In this document: positions 1,079-42,193 of the stretch, piece by piece
Position numbering within the stretch: position 1 is the first letter of the stretch
How the letters are laid out: every line of letters starts with the position of its first letter
Assembly: GCA_036172155.1 (NCBI GenBank)
Contig: JAVHSM010000033.1
Location: 1-42,568 of the forward strand
Direction of reading: 5' to 3'
Source: Candidatus Magasanikiibacteriota bacterium
GTDB taxonomy: Bacteria; Patescibacteriota; Patescibacteriia; Magasanikbacterales; GWA2-37-8
DNA length: 42,568 nt
Notes under the pieces: generated by a model
What the model saw: only the letters and a program-made list of their open reading frames with translations
Database searches by the model: none
What the model was told of the DNA's origin: nothing
Program-made: the position numbers and the translations under genes

Positions 1079-1348
1079 TGGTGGGCAGAGAAGGATTCGA
1101 ACCTTCGAAGGCGGAGCCAACAGATTTCACTTATCCATAAGTTTCCTTACGGCATGGACTATATCTTTACCCTTTTACGGGTACTCTGGTATCTAGTCTC
1201 TACGGCGCTCCCCGAACATTTCGGAGTTCCCACGGTATTAGCACCCCCATTAGCTTTCACCGTTATCCCAGAGAGTTCATCCTAGGGTTTCCCCTAAGAG
1301 CTGCAATTGTTCACAGTCTGTCCCAGTTAACCACTTTGGTATCTGCCC
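1079..1348 (-). tRNA. tRNA-Tyr(GUA), type II with a long variable arm and encoded CCA, interrupted by a group I intron
   Basis: The 5' exon (1348->1313) is GGGCAGATACCAAAGTGGTTAACTGGGACAGACTGT. The 3' exon (1127->1079) is AAATCTGTTGGCTCCGCCTTCGAAGGTTCGAATCCTTCTCTGCCCACCA. Joined, they give an 85-nt tRNA with acceptor GGGCAGA/TCTGCCC, discriminator A, anticodon stem ACAGA/TCTGT and loop CTGTAAA. The segments CAGACUGUAAAUCUG and CUUCGAAGGUUCGAAUCCUUC are nearly identical to E. coli tRNA-Tyr. Confidence 0.8.
1128..1312 (-). ncRNA. group I self-splicing intron (IC3-like, no ORF) in the tRNA-Tyr anticodon loop after U35
   Basis: RNA-sense features: P1 pairs exon CUGU with intron GCAG (U.G at the splice site). 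P2 is CUUAGGG-GAAA-CCCUAGG. P3 is CUCUGG/CCAGAG. P4 is ACGGU/ACCGU. P7 is GACUA/UAGUC inside GUAGAGACUAGA, which I recall as identical to the Azoarcus tRNA-Ile intron. P8 is ACCC-GUAAAA-GGGU. P9 is CCAU...AUGG with a UAAGGAAAC motif. The last nucleotide is G (omega-G). Confidence 0.75.
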
Positions 1349-9224: not shown

Positions 9225-11864
9225 TCAATTATTTCTATCGGCGAACAAAGACAATCTTTGCATTAGTAAATTGCTAATATCCAAGACTGTCTTGGCGACT
9301 TCTCTTTGTGAATCATCGGCTTCACCACTGGCGATTACACTGTTAGCCTTAGATTGTATTTTCATTATCGTGCCAAGTTTTTTTTCATAATCTTTTGAGT
9401 TTTCGACATTTTCCACCATACCAGCTTTTTGAACTGCTTCTACCGCCCCGCCAGAAGCATATAACAAACGATCGTTCGTACCTAATTCTTCTGTTGTGTC
9501 GTTCTTTTTGTCCAAATTCGGCAATGTACTTAACAAATTATCTATTTTATATTGAACATCACCAACATTGGCCTCCAGATTTTTTGATCGGTTATCGACT
9601 GTACTCCCAGAAACTACTCTATTTTTATTAGCGGCAATTTTTAAATCCTGTTCGTTCCAATTGTCGTCGGCTAAAATTCTGTCGTGCAAACCATACGCTA
9701 TCGCTATCCATTCCTTTTCTTTTGGAATTGTCGCAGATTCAGCAATTAAGTCTAACGCCCTCTTGGCTTCTGCCAAAAGCTTTTTCTTTTTAGTATTTGG
9801 CATATTGGGAGATTCTGCAACTTGCTCTAATATAGAAATTGCACCATTACCATCTGCAAACAAAGATCTTCTTACACTGTTCTCATCTCCATTATCAGTT
9901 CGAAGATAAGAATTTTTTCTAGGCAACTGACCCAAAAGGGATTCCATTGTATATTTGGAATAATCATTAGCTGCAACCTTTGGTTGGCCTTTTTCAGGAG
10001 CAGGCGAAACAACAGCCTCTGGAGTAGCAGTAAAAGTTTCCACTCCCAGATCAACAGGCCTGTGTCCTTTTTTATGACTTGGTTTTTCGTGTGTTTGTCC
10101 ACCGCCACCACCAACTACCCCAAAACCTTCCGGCATCATTTTATCAGGACGACCAAAACCAGCCGGAACACCGGATGGAGTAAAGGCGTTTGGTAAAGCA
10201 TTCACTGCTACTCTGGTAAACGGAGTCATTGAGGCAGGTTTTGGAGATTCCGCCTTTTTACCAGGCAAACTCATTCCACTCATACCGCCGGATCTTTCTG
10301 GAGCGGTAGCGCCAGTTTTATTTGGTTCTGGACGTACTTGAGACATATCTGTCGATTCAATACCAAGTTTGACCAATGAAAACAAAGCTAAAAAACCAGC
10401 TATTTTGGCCAGATTTTTGGTATTTTCAGCTGATTTCTTTTGTTTCATCTCTCTTACCAAAGCGGCAAATTCCAATTTGGCTTTTTCGTTATTCTCTAAG
10501 AGTTGTGGATTTTCATTATAAAAATAGACCAAAGTGTCTGTAAAATTTTTGATATCATTACCGAGCCTGTCCAATTCTTCATCAACTTGATTTTTTTTAC
10601 CAAGTTCATACCAGCTCAATCCTTTTCTTATCGACATTTGCGTATCAAAAGATGATTTTGTCATTGCCAAATCATTTCTAATTTGTTCTATCTGAGCTTT
10701 TACCCCTTCTAAACCTGACATTTTATCCGCATCCGACACACCGGCTCTATTTTCTGTTCCTTCGACCACTTGAGGTCTAAAAGCCGACGCCTTTACCAAA
10801 TCTTCCGCCGGAATTGCCGCCAGCATTTCATCCGCCTCGGCAGTATCTAGCCACTCACGCGCTACTTGTTGAGATATTTCGTTATTTGACCCATATACTT
10901 CTTGGGTCAACAACGGTAAAATATCCACAAGACCTTCTGTGTTAGATAAAATATTTTGAATTTCAGCGTTTTTATCAGCGATCTTTTCTTGAAATTTAGT
11001 TACGAAAAAAGAATATTTATCACCTTTCACAAATCTCATCAAAAAATTCGATCTTTTGTTTTCATCTACAAATTTTTTTAAATCTAATTCAATTTTCAAA
11101 CGCTCTCCTAGTAAACTTTCCAACCTGCCAACTTTATTTTCTCTTGTTTTTTCATTGAGATCAATTCCTATTTCACCAGTGTCAGTATGGCTTTCCAACC
11201 ATTCATCAACACGCCTATCGGAATTATCTTCTAAGACCGCATTGTTTGATTCCACCAAAGCTAAATTTGTAAACGGTTCTTCGTCTGAGACATCAACTAA
11301 AGATCCTGCTGGTAATAAATCTTCTTCGGCTTGCTCTCCTTCTCCACCCTCAAACGCTCTTAGACGCGCCCCCGCTTCACTTGTAGCTGGTGCCTGAAGA
11401 CCGGCTTCTGCAATTTTGCCTCGACTAATATGTTCTTTTCCAACTATTCCACGAAGTGTCTTTACTTGCTGTGCCTCGTATTGCGCGATAGCAATATTCA
11501 CCACATTAAACATATGGTCAGCGCCTTGTTGAACTTTTTTCTCAGAAGCAACACCTCTAGTTTCAGTCACAAAATCACTAACCGCCTCCTGAGTGCTCGG
11601 TAAAGCTAAAACATAATTTCTAGTAGATTCGTCTAAAACTCTCAGACTTTTAGCTAATGCCGCAATTTGCTTATATTGTGGAGAATCTTTTTTTAAATGC
11701 AAGACAGCATCACCGGAAAATTCTTGAAACATTCCAAACAGACCACCTTCGCTACGCTGGCGATCTGTTTTAGCTGCATCTCTGGCAGTTCCCAAGTCTC
11801 GTTGATTGTTATCTGAAACTGGGTGAAAATTGCCGACACCTCTTCTAAGGTTTGTTTTGGACAT
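9225..11864 (-). CDS. large orphan protein with one central TM segment and coiled-coil/low-complexity regions
   Basis: 879-aa intact ORF with an ATG start. There is a single hydrophobic helix (IAGFLALFSLVKLGI) near residue 490, followed by a P/G/S-rich linker (GFGVVGGGGGQTHEKPSHKKGH). I recognise no enzyme motif. Confidence 0.7.
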   Translation of the reverse strand: MSKTNLRRGVGNFHPVSDNNQRDLGTARDAAKTDRQRSEGGLFGMFQEFSGDAVLHLKKDSPQYKQIAALAKSLRVLDESTRNYVLALPSTQEAVSDFVTETRGVASEKKVQQGADHMFNVVNIAIAQYEAQQVKTLRGIVGKEHISRGKIAEAGLQAPATSEAGARLRAFEGGEGEQAEEDLLPAGSLVDVSDEEPFTNLALVESNNAVLEDNSDRRVDEWLESHTDTGEIGIDLNEKTRENKVGRLESLLGERLKIELDLKKFVDENKRSNFLMRFVKGDKYSFFVTKFQEKIADKNAEIQNILSNTEGLVDILPLLTQEVYGSNNEISQQVAREWLDTAEADEMLAAIPAEDLVKASAFRPQVVEGTENRAGVSDADKMSGLEGVKAQIEQIRNDLAMTKSSFDTQMSIRKGLSWYELGKKNQVDEELDRLGNDIKNFTDTLVYFYNENPQLLENNEKAKLEFAALVREMKQKKSAENTKNLAKIAGFLALFSLVKLGIESTDMSQVRPEPNKTGATAPERSGGMSGMSLPGKKAESPKPASMTPFTRVAVNALPNAFTPSGVPAGFGRPDKMMPEGFGVVGGGGGQTHEKPSHKKGHRPVDLGVETFTATPEAVVSPAPEKGQPKVAANDYSKYTMESLLGQLPRKNSYLRTDNGDENSVRRSLFADGNGAISILEQVAESPNMPNTKKKKLLAEAKRALDLIAESATIPKEKEWIAIAYGLHDRILADDNWNEQDLKIAANKNRVVSGSTVDNRSKNLEANVGDVQYKIDNLLSTLPNLDKKNDTTEELGTNDRLLYASGGAVEAVQKAGMVENVENSKDYEKKLGTIMKIQSKANSVIASGEADDSQREVAKTVLDISNLLMQRLSLFADRNN

Positions 11865-12343: not shown

Positions 12344-12474
12344 CAAGTAGCGTGGGTCGGATTCAATCCGATACCACACTCAATTCATCAGGAGGTGAAC
12401 AAGCGCCGGAGGTTCTTGGCGCTTCCCAGCACCTCCCTCCCAATAAATTCAAGAGAGAACTGAATTTATCAGGT
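12344..12474 (+). other. hairpin-dense 3' region of the GC-rich locus
   Basis: Contains TCGGA-TTCAA-TCCGA (12357-12371). There is a nested pair: GGAGGTG (12391-12397)/CACCTCC (12430-12436) enclosing AAGCGCC (12401-12407)/GGCGCTT (12418-12424). There is also ATAAATTCA (12443-12451)/TGAATTTAT (12461-12469). Confidence 0.5.
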
Positions 12475-12507
12475 AAAAAAATCCCCGACACAATCGAGGA
12501 TTTTTTT
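12475..12507. terminator. bidirectional intrinsic terminator
   Basis: AAAAAAATCC (12475-12484) pairs with GGATTTTTTT (12498-12507). A/T runs on both sides sit between the convergent 12017..12343 (+) and GT4 (-) genes. Confidence 0.7.
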
Positions 12508-13741
12508 ATTGTTTTATTGTTTCCCAAGTTAGACGCGCCGTTTCATCCCAAGAATATTTTTTTACCTGTTCCAATCCCAAACTAATTTTATTTTTTCGAT
12601 ATTCACCATCATTGATCAATTCAAATATTTTTAAACCAATATCATTGATGTCAAATGGATTAACATATTCGACTGCTCCTCCCCCCACCTCGTCCAACGC
12701 GCTACCTTTACTCGCAACCACTGGCACCCCCACGGCCATTGCCTCCAAAACCGGAATACCAAAACCTTCATACAAAGAAGGAAACACAAACACTTGTGCA
12801 TTTTTCAAAATATTCACCAGATCATCTGAACTCACAAACCCAGGTAAAATAATATCTTTTTTAAATATACTTTGCTCAATTGTCTGCTTCACCTTTTCAT
12901 AACCAGCCCCCGGTTTTCCTACCAAGATCAATTTCAAATCCGGCATTTGTTTTTTTACAATCTCAAAGGCCTGTACAATTCTTGCGGTATTCTTTTTTTC
13001 TTCCAAACGACCAATAGATAAAATATATTGACCATAAATACAAGAAATTCCTCGGCTCCTTTCAGTCGCTCGGAATGACAGTTGGCTGATGGGTTTTTCT
13101 AAATTAAATTTTTTGGTATCATAGGCTAACGGGATGACTTTTATTTTACTGACAAGGGATTGCTTCACCTTCGGCTCGCAATTACAGTCACCGACTGGAT
13201 TCCCGCTGGAGTTTATCCTCGCGGAGCGGGGGTGGGAACGACACTGACAATCAGCGTGAATTACATTATGACAGTAATATTTTAATAATTCTTTTTTATT
13301 AAATTCAGTGGAAGTCAAAATCAGTTTGGCTTTTTTGACGACCAAACGATTCATCCATTTCAAATACTGACAACCAAAAAATCTGTATACGGAAGGATAG
13401 GCTTCAAAAGCGCTATCATGCACCATCACCACCGAATTTTTTGGCGCAAAAAATGGCAATAGTTGCCCCGGTGAAAAATAAACATCCGGCGGATTGCGCC
13501 ACAATTCATACGCCAACCGAAATTGGCTCCACATTTTTTTAAAAGGCCAAACCAAAATTTTCACTTCCCAATTATTTGGCAATTGCGCCAATTCCGGTAT
13601 TAAAACATTATTGGAATACAAAACAACCCTCGTATCTGAAGGTATTTTTTTTTTTAATTCCTGAATAATCTGAAAACAATACTCCTCCACCCCGGTACGG
13701 TGAATTTTGTTGGCGTGCGTTGCATCAATACCGACTAACAT
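12506..13741 (-). CDS. GT4-family (GT-B fold) glycosyltransferase carrying in-frame repeat insertions
   Basis: 411 aa. The C-terminal domain has SIGRLEEKKN, FVFPSLYEGFGIPVLEAMAVGVPVV and typical EX7E-type spacing. The frame stays intact despite two repeat-derived segments. Confidence 0.85.
   Translation of the reverse strand: MLVGIDATHANKIHRTGVEEYCFQIIQELKKKIPSDTRVVLYSNNVLIPELAQLPNNWEVKILVWPFKKMWSQFRLAYELWRNPPDVYFSPGQLLPFFAPKNSVVMVHDSAFEAYPSVYRFFGCQYLKWMNRLVVKKAKLILTSTEFNKKELLKYYCHNVIHADCQCRSHPRSARINSSGNPVGDCNCEPKVKQSLVSKIKVIPLAYDTKKFNLEKPISQLSFRATERSRGISCIYGQYILSIGRLEEKKNTARIVQAFEIVKKQMPDLKLILVGKPGAGYEKVKQTIEQSIFKKDIILPGFVSSDDLVNILKNAQVFVFPSLYEGFGIPVLEAMAVGVPVVASKGSALDEVGGGAVEYVNPFDINDIGLKIFELINDGEYRKNKISLGLEQVKKYSWDETARLTWETIKQ
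13047..13079 (-). repeat. short palindromic repeat (GTCATTCCGAGCG...CGAGGAAT family) in frame inside the GT4 gene
   Basis: The reverse complement GTCATTCCGAGCGACTGAAAGGAGCCGAGGAAT is almost identical to the intergenic copy at 26307-26340. It is translated as LSFRATERSRGIS. Confidence 0.8.
13168..13250 (-). repeat. composite palindromic repeat insertion in frame inside the GT4 gene
   Basis: In gene sense it reads ...CTGTCGTTCCCACCCCCGCTCCGCGAGGATAAACTCCAGCGGGAATCCAG plus TCGGTGACTGTAATTGCGAGCCGAAGG. It is translated as HADCQCRSHPRSARINSSGNPVGDCNCEPKV, in the linker between the two Rossmann-like halves. Confidence 0.7.
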
Positions 13742-13770
13742 AATAAAATATTATTGATGATTAAATTAAG

Positions 13771-13804
13771 GGATCCTTCTGTGCCTTTGGCGGATCAGGA
13801 TGAC
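13771..13804. repeat. degenerate member of the palindromic repeat family
   Basis: GGATCCTTCTGTGCCTTTGGCGGATCAGGATGAC has GGATC...GGATGAC termini like the GGAATC/GGAATGAC ends of the other copies. Confidence 0.45.
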
Positions 13805-13837
13805 ATTTGGCGACAGTGCCGTGCCTTAAAATATATT

Positions 13838-13978
13838 CAGAAGACAAACGATTAAACATATGTATTTTGAAACCGCCACGGAACTTTTGCCTCGCGGCAA
13901 AAGTGAGTGAGAGTGCGATTTTGTTACAACAAAATCGACACATGTTTCAAAATATATATGTTTAATCGTTTGTCTGAA
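13838..13978. repeat. MITE-like element with ~35-bp imperfect terminal inverted repeats enclosing two internal hairpins
   Basis: The left arm CAGAAGACAAACGATTAAACATATGTATTTTGAAAC (13838-13873) matches the reverse complement of the right arm GTTTCAAAATATATATGTTTAATCGTTTGTCTGAA (13944-13978). Internal hairpins are TTTTGCC-TCGC-GGCAAAA and CGATTTTGTT-ACA-ACAAAATCG. Confidence 0.65.
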
Positions 13979-18985: not shown

Positions 18986-21250
18986 ATGGAATTCAAGCTT
19001 CAATTACACGAATTTTTTATCGAAGGTGGCAATCGGGAGAAATCCCATGTTTTATTACACATTACCGAGCCTTCCACACCCGAAGAAAAACAAAAGGGGT
19101 ATTTTTTTGCTGTTTGTGAATTAAACAATGCCGGTACCAAAGATATTATCAATTTACAAAATACAGTTGATGAAATAGAATCTCGCTACTACGAAGCGCC
19201 TGAAAGCATCGGTGAAAATTCGTTGGAGACAGTTTTGAAAAAAATCAATCGTGAAAATTTGACATTAAATCAAGAAAATTTGATCAAACATTGTGTAGTC
19301 GGCATTGTGCGTGATCAACAGATTGTTTTTTCATTTTGTGGAAAACCAAAAATGCTCTTATTTTATAAGACAAAGGAAGACATATACAAAAAGATGGATC
19401 TGGTACCGACCGATAGTGATGAAGAAGAAAATCGTTTTTTCTCACAGATTGTCGAGGGTAAAATTTCACCAAACGATTTATTGTTTATTGCCACCCCACA
19501 ATTAAAAGAATACTTTGGAGACGATCGCCTACAAAAAATTATTACCTCTCGCCCCTCGCGCCAAAGCGCCCAACATATCGAGCGTGTGTTATCGGATATT
19601 CACAACGAGATATCCTTCGGCGGACTAATCATCCAGTTGAGCGAGTTACCAATGGCAGTTGGAGACGGTATCAAAAAACGACCGACATTAAAAGGTGGTT
19701 CTGTCAAATCATTGCACAACTTATTTGCCACGGAAAAAAATACCGCCAACACCATGTCACCATCAATTTTTCCAAAAATAAACCAACGAATAAGTGCCGC
19801 TTTTCAAAATGAATCATCCGAACAAAACCAGCTGGAAATACCGTTGTCGCCAACCATACCGGCTGAAATCAATTCCACTCATCTACGCCAATATCAAGGA
19901 AGAAAAGTTTCACCGCCTGAAACCGACCACTACATGCAACTCATCAAAACTGTCGGCCAAACAACTTGGTTGTGGCTACAACATATCGCCGGTTTTATTT
20001 GGTTGATCTTTATTATTATTTTCAAAACTATTATTGTTATTGGACATTTTCTTTCTTTACTATTCTTTGTCGTCAGCAACTACCAAAATCGTCGCCGTAA
20101 TATTTTAGATAATTGGACAAAACAGTGGTATGGTTTCAAAAGTTATATTCGACATCTACCAAAAACTACCAAAATATTTTTTAGTTTGAGCTTTCTAATA
20201 TTAATTATTTTTGTTTCTAGCGTCATTACTATTCGTGCCAATCAATTGCGCCAAGAACAAGAAAAGCGCGTTCAAGAAAACATTCGACAAATCATCGCCC
20301 ACAAAAATGCAGCAGAAAGCGCCGTTATCTATAGAGATGATGCCACCGCTCTAAACGAATCTCAAGCCGCCAAACAACTCATTATCCAACTGGATTGTAA
20401 AAAATACAAAAAGGAATGTGAAGATTTTAATCAAGAAATAAACGGCATTTTATCTCAAATAAGAAAAGAAGCCATAGTTAATCCGGATTTAGTATATGAT
20501 TGGAGCAAAGATCACACATCCTTATTCAATTTAGCCAAGATAAATAATCAGATTTTGGCCATTTCATCCAGTTCATCAAAAATAGCTGTGTTTGACCTAT
20601 TGACCAAGCAATCCAAAAACATTGACACAAAAATCAACAACCTCAAAGACATCACTGTCCCCAAAGAAAATGATTACGCGGCTATTTTATATGATGATAA
20701 TAATATAATTTTATATAACCCGAAAGATGAATCATTCAAACAAGGTAACATTTCTTTTCCAAAACCGACCGCCAAAATATCTAGCCTAATAATATACAAC
20801 CGTCGACTTTACAGTTTGGATATTACCAATAATCAAATTTACAAACACGAAAATATCAAAGACGGCTTTGGTCCGGGAAAAGAATGGATCAAAGATCTTT
20901 CGGTTGATGTAAAAAATGGCGTCTCGATGACCACCGACGGTGATATGTTTATCAGCAAAACCAATGGCACCATAGAAAAACTAACAGCTGGCAACAAACA
21001 GCCATTTGAAATCTCCGGCCTTGATCCTGCTCTAAAAAACGGTAGTGAAATTTGGACATACACAGACAAACAATTTGTCTATTTACTCGACGGAGCCGGC
21101 AAACGCCTAATTGTTCTACAAAAAGACGGCCACCTCAAAGAACAAATCACCACCACTGTCTGGAAAAATCCAACCGGCATGATTATCGATGAACAAAATA
21201 AAACTGCCTTTATTTTGGACAGCAACAAACTTTATCAGATAAACCTGTAG
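18986..21250 (+). CDS. large hypothetical membrane protein (degenerate PP2C/SpoIIE-like N-domain, TM pair, coiled coil, repeat-rich C-terminus)
   Basis: 754-aa intact ORF with an ATG start, divergent from the wHTH gene. Two long hydrophobic helices lie around residues 325-410. The C-terminal segments alternate strand-like repeats (…ILYDDNNIILYNP…, …IIYNRRLYSLD…, …FVYLLDGAGKRLIVLQ…, …AFILDSNKLYQINL), suggesting a beta-propeller. Confidence 0.65.
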   Translation: MEFKLQLHEFFIEGGNREKSHVLLHITEPSTPEEKQKGYFFAVCELNNAGTKDIINLQNTVDEIESRYYEAPESIGENSLETVLKKINRENLTLNQENLIKHCVVGIVRDQQIVFSFCGKPKMLLFYKTKEDIYKKMDLVPTDSDEEENRFFSQIVEGKISPNDLLFIATPQLKEYFGDDRLQKIITSRPSRQSAQHIERVLSDIHNEISFGGLIIQLSELPMAVGDGIKKRPTLKGGSVKSLHNLFATEKNTANTMSPSIFPKINQRISAAFQNESSEQNQLEIPLSPTIPAEINSTHLRQYQGRKVSPPETDHYMQLIKTVGQTTWLWLQHIAGFIWLIFIIIFKTIIVIGHFLSLLFFVVSNYQNRRRNILDNWTKQWYGFKSYIRHLPKTTKIFFSLSFLILIIFVSSVITIRANQLRQEQEKRVQENIRQIIAHKNAAESAVIYRDDATALNESQAAKQLIIQLDCKKYKKECEDFNQEINGILSQIRKEAIVNPDLVYDWSKDHTSLFNLAKINNQILAISSSSSKIAVFDLLTKQSKNIDTKINNLKDITVPKENDYAAILYDDNNIILYNPKDESFKQGNISFPKPTAKISSLIIYNRRLYSLDITNNQIYKHENIKDGFGPGKEWIKDLSVDVKNGVSMTTDGDMFISKTNGTIEKLTAGNKQPFEISGLDPALKNGSEIWTYTDKQFVYLLDGAGKRLIVLQKDGHLKEQITTTVWKNPTGMIIDEQNKTAFILDSNKLYQINL

Positions 21251-21253
21251 ATT

Positions 21254-21367
21254 AAAAACAAAGCGGGGTGGTAATTACTTTTGAGCGGGTTATGAGGCCG
21301 AGGCCCCATCCTTTCGCCTTCGCAGGCGAAAAAAGCGAAAAAGTCATTACCACCCCTCTTTGTTTTT
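21254..21367. repeat. multi-hairpin repeat element, copy 1, at a convergent gene junction (probable bidirectional terminator)
   Basis: The outer stem is AAAAACAAAGCGGGGTGGTAAT/ATTACCACCCCTCTTTGTTTTT. The conserved core (21283-21344) is AATTACTTTTGAGCGGGTTATGAGGCCGAGGCCCCATCCTTTCGCCTTCGCAGGCGAAAAAAGCGAAAAAGT. Copy 2 is at 26786-26894. Confidence 0.8.
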
Positions 21368-21445
21368 AAGAAAATTACTAGATAAACATCTATAAGAAAT
21401 AAAAAATCTCCCGTTTAAAAGCGAGAGATTTTTTAATTGAAATTA

Positions 21446-22381: not shown

Positions 22382-22537
22382 AATCTTTTAACAAAAAAAT
22401 CTGTGTTTCCACAGACAAATAATACGGTACAAATCGACTATTTTCCACTGTCATTCCCGCGAAAGCGGGAATCCAGTGTCAAATTTTGTACCTCGGCAGG
22501 TAATTAAGCCCCATAAGGGACGCCTGCTGTCTATGGT
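22382..22537 (-). promoter_or_regulatory. rplJ 5' leader (candidate L10-leader-type autoregulatory RNA) containing a palindromic repeat copy
   Basis: About 155 nt lie between the predicted promoter and the rplJ ATG. In RNA sense it has a GC-rich stem region (CAGCAGGCGUCCCUUAUGGGGCUUAAUUACCUGCCGAGG). I cannot verify a match to the Rfam L10 leader by eye. Confidence 0.3.
22450..22473. repeat. short palindromic repeat (GTCATTCCCGCGAAAGCGGGAATC)
   Basis: The stem CATTCCCGC/GCGGGAATC forms a perfect palindrome. The same termini are seen in the copies at 36999-37022, 26307-26340 and elsewhere. Confidence 0.85.
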
Positions 22538-24026: not shown

Positions 24027-24111
24027 CTGTCATTTCGACCGAGCCTCGCGGCGAGTGGAAAAATCCCTTCTGTTATTTTAAGGGATTCCTCGGCTTCGCT
24101 CGGAATGACAG
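24027..24111. repeat. composite inverted pair of palindromic repeats forming an ~85-nt imperfect hairpin between xseA and xseB
   Basis: CTGTCATTTCGACCGAGCCTCGCGGCGAGTGGAAAAATCCCTT ... AAGGGATTCCTCGGCTTCGCTCGGAATGACAG. The termini CTGTCATT/AATGACAG are inverted. Confidence 0.8.
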
Positions 24112-26294: not shown

Positions 26295-26306
26295 TAAAAG
26301 TACATT

Positions 26307-26395
26307 GTCATTCCGAGCGACTGAAAGGAGTCGAGGAATCCCCTAACTGTCATTACCGTGCAAGCTTGTCCTCGACCTGATCGGGGACGGGAATC
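26307..26395. repeat. two tandem palindromic repeat copies that make up most of a 5' leader
   Basis: GTCATTCCGAGCGACTGAAAGGAGTCGAGGAATC (26307-26340) and GTCATTACCGTGCAAGCTTGTCCTCGACCTGATCGGGGACGGGAATC (26349-26395). Confidence 0.8.
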
Positions 26396-26409: not shown

Positions 26410-26769
26410 ATGAAAAAAGCACTTCCTTATATTATAACCATTGCCGTTGTCGCTTTCGCAATTTGGGTCGTATTTATACCAAGCAAAGCTTCTGGAATAC
26501 CAAAAGAAGCTGTGCTGTTTGTCGGCGAAGGCTGCCCACATTGTAAAATCGTAGAAGATTTTATTGCCGCCAATGGCGTGGATAAAAAAGTTCAATTTAC
26601 CATCCAAGAAATTTGGCACAATCAAGACAACGCGATTACTTTTGCCAAGGTTTGGAAACAATGCGGTTTAAGTACCGTAGAAGGTATGGGTGTACCACTC
26701 TATTGGGATGGCGCCAGTTGTTATAGCGGACAAGACGAAATCATGAATTACTTCAAAACCAAATTATAA
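26410..26769 (+). CDS. membrane-anchored thioredoxin/glutaredoxin-fold protein (CPHC active site)
   Basis: 119 aa with an N-terminal TM segment (YIITIAVVAFAIWVVFI). VLFVGEGCPHCKIVEDFI is a CxxC redox motif in a thioredoxin-fold context. Confidence 0.75.
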   Translation: MKKALPYIITIAVVAFAIWVVFIPSKASGIPKEAVLFVGEGCPHCKIVEDFIAANGVDKKVQFTIQEIWHNQDNAITFAKVWKQCGLSTVEGMGVPLYWDGASCYSGQDEIMNYFKTKL

Positions 26770-26785
26770 AAAATAAAAGTTAATT

Positions 26786-26894
26786 AAAAAACACATAGGT
26801 CATAATTACTTTTGAGCGGGCTATGAGCCGAGGCTCATCCTTTTGCCCTCGCGGGCAAAAAAAGCGAAAAAGTTGTTATGACCTACGTGTTTTT
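26786..26894. repeat. multi-hairpin repeat element, copy 2, at a convergent gene junction
   Basis: The outer stem is AAAAACACATAGGTCATAA/TTATGACCTACGTGTTTTT. The core (26814-26873) is AATTACTTTTGAGCGGGCTATGAGCCGAGGCTCATCCTTTTGCCCTCGCGGGCAAAAAAAGCGAAAAAGT. Confidence 0.8.
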
Positions 26895-33693: not shown

Positions 33694-34059
33694 TTAATCA
33701 CGAAATCTTCCCAAATTAATATCCAACGCTTTAAAAACTAAATTTAAAGTTTTAATTTTTAATTCTCCTTTTTTTGCTACCAACAATTCACGCGGTACAG
33801 TAAAAATTTTGTGAAGCATACAAATACCATCTACACCAACACCCAATTCATCCTTATTTATTAAAACTTCATTGGCAAAAACTTCATCATCTTTTTTATA
33901 AGGTTTAATTAGAACGCATACTACTGTAGGCAAACCATCATTGAGAATATTATCTTGCAAAATTAAAACAGTTTCTTTTGAGCCACTCTCTCTTTCATAC
34001 AAAAAAACATCACCACGACGAACAGCACCACAATACATTTTATCAAAATTAAATTCCAT
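33694..34059 (-). CDS. mazF: type II toxin, MazF/PemK family
   Basis: 121 aa. RRGDVFLY, ETVLILQDNILNDGLPTVVCVLIKPY and GICMLHKIFTVPRELL follow the MazF/PemK pattern. It starts 1 nt after the upstream small ORF. Confidence 0.7.
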   Translation of the reverse strand: MEFNFDKMYCGAVRRGDVFLYERESGSKETVLILQDNILNDGLPTVVCVLIKPYKKDDEVFANEVLINKDELGVGVDGICMLHKIFTVPRELLVAKKGELKIKTLNLVFKALDINLGRFRD

Positions 34060-35480: not shown

Positions 35481-37199
35481 TTACATCTCCTCTACCGTAT
35501 CTATCGTCAGTATATTTAAACAATTTTGTAATACTTGTTTAACAGCCAGACACAAAACCAATCGGGCTTTTACCAAATTTTTATCTTCACTACTCAAAAC
35601 CTTATGTTTGGCATAAAAATCGCTAAACGCTTGCGCAACATCAAAACTATATTTGACCAAAACCGATGGATTATAATTGGCAAAAGCCTTTTTGAGAGCC
35701 TCACCATAATCTCCCAACATCAAAATCAATTGCTTTTCTTCCGGTGAATTCAGCAAATTAAAATCTACATTTTTGGACAATTTACCCTTACGCAAGATAC
35801 TGTTGATACGGGCTATCATATACAAAACATACGGACCGGTAAAACCTTCAAATTTAGTCGCCGCCGCAAAATCAAAGATGATAGTTTTGTCCGCTTCGTG
35901 TTTGAGAAAATCAAATTTTATAGCTGCCATTGCTACCGTCCAAACGGTTTTTTCTATTTTCTTTTTATTCCAATCGGGATGACGCCTCTCTGTTTCCTGC
36001 AAAATTTTCCCATATACTTCATCACGCACATCATCATATAAAATTACTTTGCCGGTTCGCGAAGACATCTTTCCTTCTGGTAACATTACCAAACCATGTC
36101 CTATGTGAGTCATCTTGTAATTATAACCGGCTTTTTGCAAAACTCTAAAAAGTTGTTTAAAATAAAAATTTTGTTCACTACCAGTAAGAGTAATACTCTC
36201 AGAAATATTTTTATACTTTTTATTTTTTGCCACCGCCAAACCCAAATCACTGGTGAGATACAAACCGGCACCATTACTTTTGCGCAACAAAGCAATATCC
36301 AAATTTTCAGCTGTCAAATCCAAAATGATTGCCCCACCCTCGCCTATGGTCGCTATTTTATTTTTTAAAAGTTCATCGACAATTTTTTGGCCGGCATCTT
36401 TGACATCTTGTTCGTAAAAAGTGTAATCCAATTTCAAACCCAATTCTTTGAAGGCTTTATCAAATCCATCAATACTCCACTGTCTGGTTTTCTTAAACAA
36501 TGTCCAAATACTTTTATCGCGCGCTTCCAATTTTTTTTGCATCGCAAAAGATTGCTCTTTTTCCTCCGGATGGGACTCCAAATAAATACTGGCTTCCGCA
36601 TAAATTTCTCCCAACCATTTTTGTTCTTGGCCTTTTGGCGGTTTTTCGTTGGCATGAAATTTTAGCAAACACCAAAGACATTTCGCCACATGTGCGCCAA
36701 AATCATTGAGATAATTTATCGGGCTAATCGACACACCATTGACTGAAAAAATATTCGTTAGCGCATTGCCCAAACAGATATTGCGCAAATGGCCAATGTG
36801 CAATTCTTTGTGAGTGTTGTTGCTGGGAAATTCGATAATTACTTTTTTACCTTTTTGCGAATTATTAATACCATATTTTTTTCCTTGCTTTTGAATGTTG
36901 CTAATAATATTTTTGGCTATAATTCCAGAATTAAGAAAAAAATTCACATATGGTCCAAAAGCTACAACCCTAACTACTAAATTGCCATTTTTATTTTTGT
37001 CATTCCCGTGCAAACGGGAATCTATCACAGCCACTACCCCCTTCGCGCACTCCACCGGATTTTTTCCCTGCAATTTTGTTAACTCAAAACATCCAAATGC
37101 CAAATCACCCATCTCCGGTTTTGGCACAGGAGATAATTTTATCTCACCTTTTACTCCGGCGTCTTGTAGTAGTTTTATAATTGATTCTGATGCCTGCAT
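35481..37199 (-). CDS. argS: arginine--tRNA ligase, with an in-frame repeat insertion in the N-terminal domain
   Basis: 572 aa with HIGHLRN and a C-terminal DALR-type anticodon-binding region ending in the EEM-like terminus. Confidence 0.93.
   Translation of the reverse strand: MQASESIIKLLQDAGVKGEIKLSPVPKPEMGDLAFGCFELTKLQGKNPVECAKGVVAVIDSRLHGNDKNKNGNLVVRVVAFGPYVNFFLNSGIIAKNIISNIQKQGKKYGINNSQKGKKVIIEFPSNNTHKELHIGHLRNICLGNALTNIFSVNGVSISPINYLNDFGAHVAKCLWCLLKFHANEKPPKGQEQKWLGEIYAEASIYLESHPEEKEQSFAMQKKLEARDKSIWTLFKKTRQWSIDGFDKAFKELGLKLDYTFYEQDVKDAGQKIVDELLKNKIATIGEGGAIILDLTAENLDIALLRKSNGAGLYLTSDLGLAVAKNKKYKNISESITLTGSEQNFYFKQLFRVLQKAGYNYKMTHIGHGLVMLPEGKMSSRTGKVILYDDVRDEVYGKILQETERRHPDWNKKKIEKTVWTVAMAAIKFDFLKHEADKTIIFDFAAATKFEGFTGPYVLYMIARINSILRKGKLSKNVDFNLLNSPEEKQLILMLGDYGEALKKAFANYNPSVLVKYSFDVAQAFSDFYAKHKVLSSEDKNLVKARLVLCLAVKQVLQNCLNILTIDTVEEM
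36999..37022 (-). repeat. short palindromic repeat inside argS, translated in frame
   Basis: The plus strand reads GTCATTCCCGTGCAAACGGGAATC. In gene sense GAT TCC CGT TTG CAC GGG AAT GAC encodes DSRLHGND of VIDSRLHGNDKNKNG. Confidence 0.8.
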
Positions 37200-39562: not shown

Positions 39563-42193
39563 TTAAAGTTGTGCTTCTATTTTATCCAATTTTGCTTGTG
39601 CCTCGGATAATTTTTGATGTTCTTTTTCCACGACAGCTGGCGGAGCATTTTTTACGAATTCTTCGTTAGCCAACTTATTTTCCAAACCATTAATAAATTT
39701 AGTCAAAGATTCGAATTCTTTTTGCAGACGTTCTTTTTCTTTATCCAAGTCAATCGCTCCGGATAATTCAACATATATTTCGACATCACCCTCTACAAAT
39801 CCGGCTGAAGTTTGAGATTTTTGAGCTTTTTCAAGAATTTCCAGACTTTCTAAACGCGCCAGAGATTTAATAATTTCTGAATTTTCTTTGATTAAATTTA
39901 ATTTTTTGCCGGCGCCAATCATGGCTTCCAATTTGAAAACCGGTTCAATTTTATTTTCGGCACGCAAAACGCGGATGCCGGTGACGATATTTCTTATGGT
40001 TTCAAATTGTAAAAGAGATTCCTCCACTACGGTCGGAATGACAGCAGATGGCCATTTTTCAACCATTAAAATTTTATCTGCCCCATAGACTTCGCTCCAA
40101 ATCTGTTCAGTCACAAACGGTATGAAAGGATGCCATAATTTCAAAATGGTATTTAAAATATAATTTAAAATTTCTTCTTTGCCACTTTCCACTTTGGCAA
40201 TTTCCAAATACCAATCCGCAAATTCAGCCCAAGTAAAGGTGCGTAAATTTTCAACTGCCAAAGAAAAATCAGAACGATCTAAAAGTTTTTCCGTTTCAGC
40301 TTTTACTATTTCTAATTTAGATAAAATCCACTTGTCAGACAATGTTTTGGCTTTAGGTTTTAAAATATTTTTATCAGCTTTTTCAATCTGTAAAAAAACA
40401 TAACGAGAAATATTCCAAAGTTTATTAACAAAATTACGCGATCCCTCTATTTTTTCTTTATAAAAAGCTGAATCATTTCCAGGTGAAATACCGGACAACA
40501 AGCTTAAGCGCAGAGCATCACAACCATATTCTTTTATAGCATCAAGTGGGTCAATACCGTTATTGGCTGATTTAGAAAATTTCTTCCCATGCTCATCACG
40601 TAACATGCCGTGTATATACACTTCTTTAAACGGAATAGCATCGACAGCATAGGTGGTCATCAAAATCATTCTAGCCATCCAAAAGAAAATAATTTCATTA
40701 CCCATCTGCATCCAACTAGTCGGATGATATGCACCTATATCCTTAAGATCATCAGGCCAACCCAAAGTAGAAAAAGTCCAAAGACCAGAACTAAACCAAG
40801 TATCCAAAGTATCTTCATCCTGAGACCAACCTTCGCCTTCTGGTGCTTTTAAATCACAATAAATTTCTTCACCTTTATACCATACTGGCACGCGATGTCC
40901 CCACCAAATTTGACGAGAAATACACCAATCACGAAGATTATCTATCCAATTTAAATAAACTTTTTCAAAGCGTTCTGGGGTAATTTTAATTTTTTGATTA
41001 ATATCTCCATTGTGACCAACAGTTACCGCTTCTTTCATTAAATCTTTAAGACTCTTATTTTTACTTGGAATAATTTTGTTAACATCTACAAACCACTGAG
41101 TCAAAGGCAAGGCTTCAACCACATCCCCAAAACGATCTGAAGTACCAACATTTTGTTTTATATCCTCTTCTTTTATTAATAAATTATTTTCTTTTAACCA
41201 TTCAACAAATTTTATACGAGCTTCTATCACGGTTAATCCAACATATTTGTCACCAGCAGCAGCCAACATTTTTCCATCTGTTCCGATTACCGGAACTAAA
41301 TCTATTGGTGTGCCTTGAGCTTTTTGTTTGGAATACATTTCGTAATCAATCGCGCTATGAGCTGGTGTCACACCCAAAGCTCCAGTTCCAAACTCAATTT
41401 CAACACCATCGTCGGCAATAATTTTTATATTCAATGGTTTTTGTGCCCCGACATCAACTACAAAAGTTTGACCAATATATTTTTGATAATGTTCATCTTT
41501 TGGGTTCACAGCCACAGCGGTATCACCTAATTTAGTTTCAGGACGAGTAGAGGAAATAACAAGCGGAAAATCTTTAGAATATTTAAATGTATACATCTTA
41601 GCATCACGCTCGATATGCACCAGTTCATCATCAGAACAAGTAGATTGTCCTTTGACTGACCAATTCACTACTCGATAACCACGATAAATTAAACCATGAT
41701 CATACATTTTTTTAAAAACAATGTTTACCGCTAAACTACGTTTATCATCAAAAGTATAAGCCAAACGAGACCAATCACAACTAGTCCCCATTTTTTTAAT
41801 TTGATTTAAAATAGTAGCCTTGGAACTCTCGGCAAATTCACGAATGATATCTAATAATTTTTCACGGCCATATTCTTCTCGAGGGTGGAGATGACCATGT
41901 TTGATCAAATCTTTTTCAACTTTAGCTTGAGTAGCAACAGCAGCATGGTCTGTACCTGGTAATAATAGTGCTTTTTTACCTTTCATACGCTGATAACGTA
42001 TCATCGTGTCCATCAAGGAATTTTCCAAAGCATGTCCAAGATGTAAAACACCGGTAACATTTGGTGGTGGGAAAAGAATAGAAAACGGCTCTCCTGTTAA
42101 ATTGTCTGGATTAAAAAACCCGCTTTCTTCCCAGCGTTTGTATATTAGATCCTCATATTTTTGGGGTTCGTAAGCTTTAGGCAATTCTCTCAT
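39563..42193 (-). CDS. valS: valine--tRNA ligase
   Basis: 876 aa with PPPNVTGVLHLGHA (HIGH), KFSKSANN (KMSKS), a CP1 editing domain and a C-terminal coiled coil. Confidence 0.95.
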   Translation of the reverse strand: MRELPKAYEPQKYEDLIYKRWEESGFFNPDNLTGEPFSILFPPPNVTGVLHLGHALENSLMDTMIRYQRMKGKKALLLPGTDHAAVATQAKVEKDLIKHGHLHPREEYGREKLLDIIREFAESSKATILNQIKKMGTSCDWSRLAYTFDDKRSLAVNIVFKKMYDHGLIYRGYRVVNWSVKGQSTCSDDELVHIERDAKMYTFKYSKDFPLVISSTRPETKLGDTAVAVNPKDEHYQKYIGQTFVVDVGAQKPLNIKIIADDGVEIEFGTGALGVTPAHSAIDYEMYSKQKAQGTPIDLVPVIGTDGKMLAAAGDKYVGLTVIEARIKFVEWLKENNLLIKEEDIKQNVGTSDRFGDVVEALPLTQWFVDVNKIIPSKNKSLKDLMKEAVTVGHNGDINQKIKITPERFEKVYLNWIDNLRDWCISRQIWWGHRVPVWYKGEEIYCDLKAPEGEGWSQDEDTLDTWFSSGLWTFSTLGWPDDLKDIGAYHPTSWMQMGNEIIFFWMARMILMTTYAVDAIPFKEVYIHGMLRDEHGKKFSKSANNGIDPLDAIKEYGCDALRLSLLSGISPGNDSAFYKEKIEGSRNFVNKLWNISRYVFLQIEKADKNILKPKAKTLSDKWILSKLEIVKAETEKLLDRSDFSLAVENLRTFTWAEFADWYLEIAKVESGKEEILNYILNTILKLWHPFIPFVTEQIWSEVYGADKILMVEKWPSAVIPTVVEESLLQFETIRNIVTGIRVLRAENKIEPVFKLEAMIGAGKKLNLIKENSEIIKSLARLESLEILEKAQKSQTSAGFVEGDVEIYVELSGAIDLDKEKERLQKEFESLTKFINGLENKLANEEFVKNAPPAVVEKEHQKLSEAQAKLDKIEAQL
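40017..40042 (-). repeat. shortened palindromic repeat inside valS, translated in frame
   Basis: In gene sense GTCATTCCGACCGTAGTGGAGGAATC encodes (A)VIPTVVEES. It has the same GTCATTCCGA...GGAGGAATC termini as the 26307-26340 copy. Confidence 0.55.

What the first reader, a model, noticed from the sequence alone, without database searches (positions are those of the whole stretch)
13047..13250. Palindromic repeat elements inserted in frame into an intact glycosyltransferase gene (RPE-like behaviour)
Seen in sequence: a family of short palindromic elements has GTCATTCC... / ...GGAATC(C) termini. Copies occur at 13047-13079, 13168-13250, 13771-13804, 22450-22473, 24027-24111, 26307-26340, 26349-26395, 36999-37022 and 40017-40042.

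Two copies lie inside the GT4 ORF without breaking the frame:
- One adds LSFRATERSRGIS just before the conserved SIGRLEEKKN segment.
- A composite copy adds about 30 residues (HADCQCRSHPRSARINSSGNPVGDCNCEPKV) in the inter-domain linker.

The copy at 13047-13079 differs by a single base from the intergenic copy at 26307-26340, which argues for recent spread.

Established knowledge: in-frame colonisation of protein genes by palindromic elements is known for Rickettsia palindromic elements.

Inference: this appears to be an analogous system in a different lineage.
Basis: partly seen in the sequence, partly recalled or inferred. Interest (0 to 1): 0.65.

Follow-up and report, generated by a model that had tools for sequence, protein, structure and literature searches.

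The report
Known hairpin repeats inside Patescibacteria genes
Short hairpin-forming DNA repeats of an already described family (the "CGTC-tagged REPs", which include the small Rickettsia palindromic elements) sit in frame inside a glycosyltransferase and two tRNA-synthetase genes of a groundwater Magasanikbacteria genome, adding floppy loops without breaking the proteins: a real case, in a phylum not on the family's published list, of a known phenomenon.

Summary
The window carries a family of hairpin repeats, YTGTCATTCC…GGAATCC. The motif GTCATTCC-N6-30-GGAAT occurs 6 times against 0.05 expected.

Two sites in the intact GT4 gene (12506-13741, minus strand) carry such elements. Close orthologues lack them. 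AlphaFold's only low-confidence segments coincide with the inserts.

- Copy 40017-40042 is in frame in ValRS.
- Copy 36999-37022 is in frame, antisense, in ArgRS.
- Copy 22450-22473 is an insert in the L10 leader.

The linker "composite" is nested: an 87-nt insertion splits an older element directly after GTCAT.

The kind is already described (Di Nocera et al. 2013, PMC3733652) as CGTC/TGTC-tagged REPs. Rickettsia RPE-6 and RPE-4 are its CGTC-1 and CGTC-4 families. That paper lists in-frame REP peptides (VIPAKAGI, CHSRESGNP, DSRLRGND). The first is the exact translation of the window's L10-leader copy. The others are close to the ArgRS and orthologue inserts.

The 24-nt core is nucleotide-identical to repeats in Neisseria and Sphingopyxis. 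So this is the same superfamily, not an analogue, in a phylum (Patescibacteria) absent from the published list. How the elements move remains unknown. Interest is modest.

The parts
12506..13741 (-). Intact GT4-family glycosyltransferase gene (411 aa) that hosts the inserts
   Evidence: ORF. Pfam Glycos_transf_1, 2.9e-32. Orthologues are mostly 362-373 aa, in conserved DUF4012-mreB-GT4 synteny. AlphaFold mean pLDDT 88.4.
13043..13081 (-). Site-2 insertion: 39 nt net, encoding LSFRATERSRGIS (residues 221-233). The 34-nt REP proper is 13047-13080.
   Evidence: Absent from all close orthologues. 33 of 34 nt identical to 26306-26339. pLDDT below 50 over exactly residues 221-233. About 5x extra contig depth in metagenomes.
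13157..13273 (-). Linker composite (residues 157-195). Outer REP is TGTCAT (13268-13273) plus TGCGAG…GCAATCC (13157-13180). It is split by an 87-nt inner insertion (13181-13267) that contains a 46-nt family member, GTCGTTCCCACC…GCGGGAATC (13198-13243).
   Evidence: Codon alignment with L001, which has only the outer element, and with insert-free L083/L089. Other contigs in the same metagenomes carry the 46-nt unit with 4 mismatches. Mean pLDDT 51-58 over residues 161-190.
13767..13820 (-). GTCATCCTGA…AAGGATCC-type relative, between GT4 and mreB
   Evidence: About 30x the flanking depth, and contigs break there, in runs X1-X4.
22450..22473 (+). 24-nt CGTC-1-type REP, GTCATTCCCGCGAAAGCGGGAATC, inside the L10 leader and antisense to the mRNA
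   Evidence: The Rfam RF00557 alignment shows a 39-nt insert that contains it. Folds at -9 kcal/mol, z = -5.1. Orthologous copies in L002 and L084 show a G-C, G·T, A-T series. Core identical to Neisseria and Sphingopyxis repeats.
24027..24111 (.). Inverted dimer with tags outside (HH): 24027-24064 (+) and 24084-24111 (-), intergenic between xseB and xseA
   Evidence: The 26-nt arm is identical to L084 11135-11160 at a non-orthologous site and to copies in three IMG/VR viral contigs.
26306..26395 (+). Tandem pair: the 34-nt REP (26306-26340) and a 47-nt relative (26349-26395), intergenic
   Evidence: No Pfam family in the flanking ORF 26410-26769.
36999..37022 (+). 24-nt REP in frame, antisense, in ArgRS (gene 35481-37199, minus strand), encoding DSRLHGND
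   Evidence: 24 of 24 nt identical in the orthologue L086, although the genes are 76% identical at nucleotide level. Absent from L088. Falls in a loop with an 8-residue gap relative to PDB 2zue.
40017..40042 (-). 26-nt REP in frame, sense, in ValRS (gene 39563-42193, minus strand), encoding VIPTVVEES
   Evidence: Absent from the closest orthologue (L086, 89% aa identity). Present in diverged form in L088. Other orthologues carry their own versions in the same variable loop.

Best explanation
These are CGTC/TGTC-tagged REP elements: small non-autonomous hairpin repeats.

Anatomy:
- An unpaired 5' tag, (Y)TGTC.
- A stem that begins with A-T, A-T (ATTCC…GGAAT).
- A variable interior.
- A short 3' tail (CCA, CCC or CTx).

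The same superfamily includes Rickettsia RPE-6 and RPE-4 and Neisseria dRS3.

Behaviour in this groundwater Magasanikbacteria (Patescibacteria) genome:
- The elements have multiplied to many sites.
- Copies persist where they are tolerated: intergenic spacers, an unstructured spacer of the L10 leader, and variable surface loops of proteins.
- About 93% of the sampled DNA lies in ORFs, so roughly half of the detected copies lie inside genes.
- Only copies that keep the frame and contain no stop codon survive there. They are translated into short disordered loops (CHS…, SFR…, VIP…, or DSR…GND when antisense).

Shown here: family membership by sequence features, insertion status, presence/absence among orthologues, multicopy status, and loop location.

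Inferred: that the elements are mobile DNA copied in trans, probably as single-stranded hairpins, by an enzyme not encoded nearby and still unidentified for this superfamily; and that the inserts are translated and near-neutral.
For: Family features:
- T at position -1 in 23 of 25 copies, giving TGTC; CT or TT in the two positions before GTCAT in 22 of 25.
- The stem starts with AT. The 24-nt copies have 8-bp stems and 4-nt loops.
- Tails are CCA, CCC or similar.
- All five dimers seen have their tags outside: window 24027-24111, L099, L100, L102, L104.
- These features match the CGTC definition in PMC3733652.

Same sequences elsewhere:
- The published REP peptides VIPAKAGI, CHSRESGNP and DSRLRGND are, respectively, the exact translation of the window's L10-leader copy and near-matches to the L002 GT4 insert (CHSRENGNP) and the ArgRS insert (DSRLHGND).
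- The 24-27-nt core is identical in Neisseria gonorrhoeae and in Sphingopyxis. The latter carries an in-frame dimer in ileS.

Insertion status:
- GT4 alignments.
- ValRS and ArgRS alignments.
- L10 leader.

Spread:
- 33 of 34 nt identity between a coding and an intergenic copy.
- An identical 26-mer at non-orthologous sites in two genomes.
- Independent elements in the same GT4 loops in 5 of 19 (linker) and 3 of 19 (site 2) orthologues.
- A nested insertion.
- Element density is patchy between related genomes: 0 to 7 strict hits per locus; 7 in the 42.6-kb window, 0 in several loci of about 20 kb.
- Extra contig depth at the elements in four metagenomes.

Tolerance: AlphaFold shows low confidence only at the inserts.
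Against: - No mobilising enzyme was found. There is no transposase Pfam family in the 21 window ORFs scanned, nor in the precomputed Pfam lists of about 110 kb of related loci.
- No target-site duplication or clean empty-site junction could be defined. Net insert sizes (21, 39 and 9 nt) differ from element lengths.
- No insert-free allele was seen in the metagenome contigs.
- No RNA or protein data exist to show translation.
- The 26-, 34- and 46-nt forms have 5-bp closing stems with internal loops. They lie outside the 8-9 bp stem and 4-5 nt loop ranges of the four published CGTC families, so their family assignment rests on shared termini.
- The ArgRS copy is 24 of 24 nt identical across orthologues whose genes are 76% identical. 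This fits nucleotide-level constraint or conversion better than neutral decay.
Confidence: 0.85

Rival explanations
1. The hairpins are kept by selection for a function at DNA or RNA level rather than being merely tolerated selfish DNA. Candidate functions are a protein-binding site, an mRNA stabiliser or attenuator, a recombination target, or an uptake signal. On this view coding copies are constrained as nucleotides.
For: - The ArgRS copy is 24 of 24 nt identical between orthologues with 76% nucleotide identity and 56% third-position identity. Only 3 places in the gene have a fully identical 8-codon window.
- The L10-leader copies show a G-C, G·T, A-T compensatory series.
- The same 24-27-nt sequence is conserved across phyla.
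- Di Nocera et al. argue that many REPs act as RNA elements.
Against: - Copy number ranges from zero to many between close relatives.
- The host genes are unrelated.
- Both orientations occur relative to transcription: of the 11 coding copies found by the strict scan, 8 are sense and 3 antisense.
- The ValRS copy has diverged at 6 of 26 positions between orthologues.
- The longer forms fold no better than shuffles.
- Density, about 1 copy per 4-6 kb, is far below that of uptake sequences.
Confidence: 0.2
2. The copies did not arrive by transposition. They arose or were homogenised in place, by template-switch (fold-back) replication errors or by gene conversion from other copies at sites that already resembled the element ends.
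For: - The insert-free linker of L083/L089 already reads GGTCAT|TTCCTC, which resembles joined element ends.
- The ValRS element adds only 9 nt net, and its 3' half aligns loosely (12 of 21 nt) with the sequence of the element-free orthologue.
- No target duplication was seen.
- The inner GT4 insertion sits exactly after GTCAT of an older copy.
Against: - 33 of 34 nt identity between the GT4 site-2 copy and an intergenic copy 13 kb away, at a site where every close orthologue has nothing similar.
- Other empty linkers (L091, L093, L100) lack GTCAT.
- Alignment inside variable loops is unreliable.
Confidence: 0.1
3. The extra GT4 segments are ancestral loop sequence lost in relatives, or an assembly artefact, and their resemblance to the repeats is coincidental.
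For: The sites are variable loops in which length differs among orthologues anyway.
Against: - The nearest orthologues (84% and 71-74% aa identity) lack the segments, while more distant ones carry different elements at the same places.
- 33 of 34 nt match to an intergenic copy.
- Chance expectation for the motif is 0.05 against 6 observed.
- Contigs from four separate runs reproduce 12400-13794 with no differences.
Confidence: 0.03

Closest known systems
CGTC-tagged REP superfamily (Di Nocera, De Gregorio & Rocco 2013, BMC Genomics 14:522, PMC3733652), especially family CGTC-1 (= Rickettsia conorii RPE-6, Neisseria dRS3)
   Same: - Unpaired CGTC/TGTC tag.
- Stem beginning with A-T, A-T.
- 8-bp stem and 4-nt loop in the 24-nt copies.
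- CCA-like tail.
- Dimers with tags outside.
- In-frame intragenic copies giving VIPAKAGI, CHSRESGNP and DSRLRGND-type peptides, including in aaRS genes.
- No adjacent transposase.
- The 24-27-nt core is nucleotide-identical to Neisseria and Sphingopyxis copies.
   Different: - The host phylum, Patescibacteria/CPR, is not among the five phyla listed for CGTC repeats.
- Most copies here are longer forms (26, 34, 46 nt) with a 5-bp closing stem and internal loops, outside the published stem and loop ranges.
- A large share of copies is intragenic.
- Nesting of one element in another.
Rickettsia palindromic elements in the original sense (RPE-1 type; Ogata et al. 2000, as summarised in PMC10969869)
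   Same: Repeats that insert in frame into unrelated housekeeping genes, add a peptide segment and leave the protein intact.
   Different: RPE-1-type elements are about 100-150 bp and encode a conserved peptide of 30-50 residues. The elements here are 24-46 nt and encode 8-15 residues. Only the short RPE-4 and RPE-6 belong to the same sequence superfamily.
GTAG-tagged REPs / REPINs mobilised by RAYT tyrosine transposases (Nunvar 2010; Bertels & Rainey 2011, PMC3116915)
   Same: Short tagged hairpins, inverted dimers as a common unit, patchy copy number, conserved 'master' sequences, and occasional intragenic copies.
   Different: The tag is TGTC, not GTAG. No RAYT or Y1 transposase gene was found near any copy. 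Association with a transposase is reported as absent for CGTC repeats in general.
MITEs (TIR plus target-site duplication, typically under 500 bp per PMC10969869)
   Same: Non-autonomous, multicopy, able to form in-frame fusions.
   Different: Much shorter, no recognisable target-site duplication, G+C-rich in an A+T-rich genome, with a single asymmetric tag instead of two equivalent TIRs.

Membership tests
CGTC-tagged REP superfamily | Unpaired terminal tetranucleotide CGTC (TGTC or CCTC accepted variants) | tested here: met
   T precedes GTC in 23 of 25 copies, giving TGTC.
CGTC-tagged REP superfamily | Stem of 8-9 bp whose first two pairs are A-T, with a loop of 4-5 nt | tested here: inconclusive
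   Met by the 24-nt copies: ATTCCCGC/GCGGGAAT with a GAAA or CAAA loop. The 26-, 34- and 46-nt copies keep the AT-first 5-bp stem, but then have internal loops and larger interiors.
CGTC-tagged REP superfamily | Short unpaired 3' tail, consensus CCA | tested here: met
   After …GGAAT the tail reads CCA, CCC, CTC or CTA. In the table the two bases after …ATC are 'cc' in 11 of 25 copies. The CCA tail occurs at 22450, in the inner GT4 unit and in L002.
CGTC-tagged REP superfamily | Dimers predominantly with tags outside (HH) | tested here: met
   Five of five inverted dimers are HH: window 24027-24111, L099, L100, L102, L104. Two head-to-tail tandem pairs also occur: window 26306-26395 and the L002 GT4 linker.
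CGTC-tagged REP superfamily | Sequence identity or near-identity to described members | tested here: met
   GTCATTCCCGCGAAAGCGGGAATCCAG is identical in Sphingopyxis ileS. The 24-nt core is identical in N. gonorrhoeae. The encoded peptides match Additional file 3 of PMC3733652.
CGTC-tagged REP superfamily | No dedicated flanking transposase | tested here: met
   None in the 21 window ORFs scanned, nor in the precomputed Pfam lists of the six related loci fetched with them. Whole genomes were not examined.
Rickettsia palindromic elements, RPE-1 type | About 100-150 bp palindromic unit encoding a conserved peptide of roughly 30-50 residues | tested here: not met
   Units here are 24-46 nt and encode 8-15 residues. 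Only the composite reaches 117 nt, through nesting.
Rickettsia palindromic elements, RPE-1 type | In-frame insertion into unrelated functional genes, at surface-exposed positions | tested here: met
   GT4, ValRS and ArgRS. Low-pLDDT loops.
GTAG REP / REPIN-RAYT system | GTAG (GTGG) tag at the foot of the hairpin | tested here: not met
   The tag is TGTC.
GTAG REP / REPIN-RAYT system | A RAYT (Y1 HUH transposase) gene in the genome, typically flanked by the REPs | not testable with these tools
   Only 42.6 kb of this genome is available. No Y1_Tnp family appears in the scanned ORFs or in the related loci.
MITE | Terminal inverted repeats plus target-site duplication | tested here: not met
   No duplication could be identified at the GT4, ValRS or nested junctions. 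The ends are asymmetric (tag versus tail).

The most novel reading that the evidence does not exclude
CGTC-type REPs may not be mobilised by a dedicated transposase. Instead they may be copied by a widely conserved host or phage-borne function and carried between phyla by phages.

This would explain several observations:
- 24-27-nt units are nucleotide-identical in Patescibacteria, Alpha- and Betaproteobacteria.
- The 26- and 34-nt units of this 38% G+C genome recur in 57-60% G+C phage contigs, including inside a terminase gene.
- A copy can stay 24 of 24 nt identical inside diverging ArgRS genes.

The very small CPR gene sets, with closely related element-rich and element-free genomes, could then be used to pinpoint the long-sought mobilising factor by gene co-occurrence.
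Probability: 0.12. Interest if true: 0.7.

Novelty: new member of a known kind. Interest (0 to 1): 0.33.

Why it matters
- It extends the CGTC-tagged REP superfamily, and its habit of living in frame inside essential genes, to the Candidate Phyla Radiation. In these tiny, gene-dense genomes coding loops are almost the only space left.
- For annotators: odd Cys/His/Arg-rich segments (CHS…GNP, SFR…ES, VIP…GI, DSR…GND) in CPR proteins are repeat-derived loops. They are not metal-binding motifs, frameshifts or chimeras.
- Different elements hit the same two GT4 loops and the same ValRS loop independently in different lineages. Such repeats therefore mark structurally permissive sites.
- The unsolved question, what copies CGTC repeats, may be easier to attack in genomes of under 1 Mb that differ sharply in element load.

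Tried and rejected
1. The genome-contig scan with the GT4 alignment picked universal GT4 motifs (RLE[EK]KKNT, PSLYEGFG). Orthologous DNA came instead from the look-up of encoding contigs and from a metagenome scan with the N-terminal domain.
2. A strict hairpin scan (8-nt arms) missed most copies, because the longer forms have internal loops. A generic 5-bp-arm scan was no better than shuffles in this A+T-rich DNA. The tagged motif was decisive.
3. Search for a target-site duplication or a clean empty site: nothing convincing.
4. Search for a transposase: none in the 21 window ORFs scanned, including the ORFs next to the 24027-26395 copies, and none in the related loci.
5. Population polymorphism: only assembled contigs were available, and no insert-free allele was seen.
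6. RNA evidence: no RNA run holds the gene.
7. Rfam: no family covers the hairpins themselves.
8. Literature search by literal sequence failed or found nothing.
9. The idea that the 26- and 34-nt forms are CPR-specific was suggested by the lack of real plasmid hits. It was rejected when exact and near-exact copies turned up in high-G+C viral contigs.
10. An uptake-signal reading was considered and set aside: copy density is low, and it is the closing stem and its flanking tag and tail that are kept while the interior sequence varies freely.
Full report
**What is there.** The window (42,568 bp, 38% G+C) comes from a Candidatus Magasanikbacteria (Patescibacteria/CPR) genome. Its ValRS is 89% identical to that of Magasanikbacteria RIFOXYD2_FULL_36_9. 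Near-identical contigs occur in four groundwater metagenome runs. The gene at 12506-13741 (minus strand) is an intact 411-aa GT4-family glycosyltransferase. It lies in conserved synteny (DUF4012, mreB, GT4) with its orthologues.

**The repeat family is real.**
- GTCATTCC occurs 7 times against 1.13 expected.
- GTCATTCC-N6-30-GGAAT occurs 6 times against 0.05 expected, and no shuffle exceeds 1.
- 13047-13080 and 26306-26339 agree at 33 of 34 nt.
- Across the window and about 340 kb of related loci, 25 clear members share a 5' T before GTC (23 of 25). Most have CT or TT in the two positions before GTCAT (22 of 25). They also share a stem beginning ATTCC…GGAAT and a short tail, often CC.
- The 24-nt copies fold into an 8-bp stem with a 4-nt loop (-8 to -9 kcal/mol, z about -5). 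The longer copies keep only the 5-bp closing stem and score no better than shuffles.

**Both GT4 segments are insertions.** The 120 best homologues listed are mostly 362-373 aa long. In a 31-sequence alignment the window protein has two private segments.
- *Site 2.* Codon alignment with orthologous DNA shows a 39-nt net insertion, CTGTCATTCCGAGCGACTGAAAGGAGCCGAGGAATTTCT (window 13043-13081). It encodes LSFRATERSRGIS at residues 221-233. Every close orthologue reads …GGT CAA | AAT ATT… at that point.
- *Linker.* The insert is nested. The 84%-identical orthologue L001 carries one element, TGTCATTGCGAGCCACAGGCGAAGCAATCC, encoding CHCEPQAKQS. In the window that element is split directly after GTCAT by 87 nt (13181-13267). 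These 87 nt contain a 46-nt family member (13198-13243). Other contigs of the same metagenomes carry that member with 4 mismatches.
- *Structure.* AlphaFold (mean pLDDT 88.4, pTM 0.85) gives a confident two-domain model. Its only low-confidence stretches are residues 161-190 and 221-233, which are the inserts.

- 40017-40042 is in frame in ValRS (VIPTVVEES, sense), and 36999-37022 is in frame in ArgRS (DSRLHGND, antisense).
- *ValRS.* The closest orthologue (L086) lacks the element, while L088 has a diverged copy at the same spot. Other orthologues carry their own versions in the same variable loop: VIPTEAAGRVEES, VLPNECEES and, in another frame, CHSELVSES.
- *ArgRS.* The copy is 24 of 24 nt identical in L086, although the two genes are 76% identical at nucleotide level. 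L088 lacks it. It falls in a loop of the N-terminal domain.
- *L10 leader.* Copy 22450-22473 lies within a 39-nt insert in the spacer of the L10 leader (RF00557). Orthologous copies in L002 and L084 differ by a G-C, G·T, A-T series at one stem pair.
- 24027-24111 is an inverted dimer with its tags outside. 26306-26395 is a tandem pair.

**Recurrence in orthologues.** Among 19 GT4 orthologues with DNA in hand, five carry elements in the linker: the window, L001, L002 (two in tandem), L084 and L085. Three carry them at site 2: the window, L102 and L104. The last two are inverted dimers read through in frame. The elements differ in type and exact position. That points to independent hits on the same permissive loops. 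The one exception is the outer linker element, which the window shares with L001.

**Distribution.**
- Element load is patchy: 7 strict hits in the 42.6-kb window and none in several 20-kb loci.
- About 11 of the 25 members lie in credible genes, although ORFs fill about 93% of the DNA. Intergenic density is therefore more than tenfold higher.
- The loci were chosen through GT4 and ValRS, so these proportions are biased.

**What it is.** Di Nocera, De Gregorio and Rocco (2013, PMC3733652) described two superfamilies of tagged REPs.
[quoted passage not shown] It has a 3-nt tail near CCA, mostly dimers with tags outside, and intragenic copies. No associated transposase is known.
- *Known members.* They equate CGTC-1 and CGTC-4 in R. 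conorii with RPE-6 and RPE-4, and CGTC-1 in Neisseria with dRS3.
- *Peptides.* Their table of intragenic copies lists VIPAKAGI, SFPRKRES, CHSRESGNP and antisense DSRFRGND/DSRLRGND. These occur in Rickettsia, Sphingomonas, Coxiella and Chlorobium, and in GlyRS-beta and IleRS of Erythrobacter.
- *Match to the window.* GTCATTCCCGCGAAAGCGGGAATC (22450-22473) translates to VIPAKAGI. ArgRS has DSRLHGND. The L002 GT4 has CHSRENGNP.
- *Direct test.* The 37-nt stretch around 22450 finds 41 PLSDB records and 202 places, in Neisseria, Azospirillum, sphingomonads, Legionella and Cupriavidus. The core is identical in N. gonorrhoeae. In Sphingopyxis indica it forms part of an in-frame dimer in ileS (RHPRESGDP…DSRFRGND).

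The elements are therefore members of this known superfamily, not a merely analogous system.

**What is not covered by the published description.**
- Patescibacteria are not among the five phyla listed for CGTC repeats. Neither that paper nor a 2025 REP survey (PMC12306157) mentions them. My literature searches found no report for CPR. Absence from the searched library is not proof.
- The 26-, 34- and 46-nt forms fall outside the stated stem and loop ranges.
- These longer forms are not CPR-specific. They have no real match in plasmids. However, the exact 26-mer and 31-of-34-nt relatives of the 34-mer occur in IMG/VR contigs of 57-60% G+C. One of these (L108) is a genuine phage contig with nine members in 12.6 kb, two of them inside its terminase ORF.

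**Mechanism.**
- *Shown:* multicopy status, presence/absence among orthologous sites, nesting, dimer architecture, conserved master sequences shared between genomes, and loop location.
- *Inferred:* copying in trans as a hairpin by an unidentified enzyme, translation of the inserts, and near-neutrality.
- *Against a simple cut-and-paste picture:* no target duplication was found. Net insert sizes do not equal element lengths. One empty linker already reads GTCAT|TTCC.
- *Other gaps:* no transposase was found in the window or in the related loci (and the Pfam lists). No insert-free allele and no RNA data were available.

**Verdict.** The novelty is that of a new host lineage and some new detail for a known kind of element.

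Noticed in passing
window 1135-1339 (-): Rfam group I intron match (RF00028, 53.3 bits against a gathering score of 50, full model length). It lies between two ORFs and about 700 bp from two tRNA-Thr genes. ARAGORN finds no tRNA at the site, so the host gene of the putative intron is unclear.
   Followed up: partly
window 21252-21369 and 26787-26894; also 13842-13975: A second, unrelated repeat type: long A+T-rich hairpins with arms of 27-32 nt, 89-97% complementary and 54-70 nt apart. The first two hairpins share an 83%-identical 48-nt core and each starts just after an ORF end. They could be terminator-like elements or small MITEs.
   Followed up: no
window 13767-13820: The GTCATCCTGA-type element between GT4 and mreB has about 30 times the flanking contig depth in four groundwater runs, and contigs break there. 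It must be very abundant in that community, probably across several genomes.
   Followed up: partly
L108 1536-3850 (IMG/VR contig, 57% G+C); L109: Phage contigs (terminase large subunit; tail tube protein) carry the same 26-nt unit exactly and 34-nt units that are 31 of 34 nt identical. L108 has nine family members in 12.6 kb, two of them inside the terminase ORF. Phages may carry these repeats between lineages.
   Followed up: partly
L106 (Sphingopyxis indica plasmid pMC4, ileS): An isoleucyl-tRNA ligase gene contains an in-frame inverted dimer of the 24-nt unit (RHPRESGDP…DSRFRGND). One arm is identical over 27 nt to the window's L10-leader copy.
   Followed up: yes
window 36999-37022 compared with L086 15233-15256: The ArgRS copy is 24 of 24 nt identical between orthologues whose genes are 76% identical (56% at third positions). 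Fully identical 8-codon windows occur at only three places in the gene. This hints at nucleotide-level constraint, conversion or re-insertion.
   Followed up: partly
window 33694-34059 (-): A MazF/PemK-like toxin ORF (Pfam PF02452, 1e-9) lies among housekeeping genes. No antitoxin partner was looked for.
   Followed up: no
window 9225-11864 (-) and 18986-21250 (+): Two large ORFs (879 and 754 aa). The 754-aa ORF has no Pfam family; the 879-aa ORF was not scanned here. Their syntenic counterparts in the related loci (768-858 aa and 755 aa) have no Pfam hit on record either. They appear to be lineage-specific proteins of unknown function.
   Followed up: no
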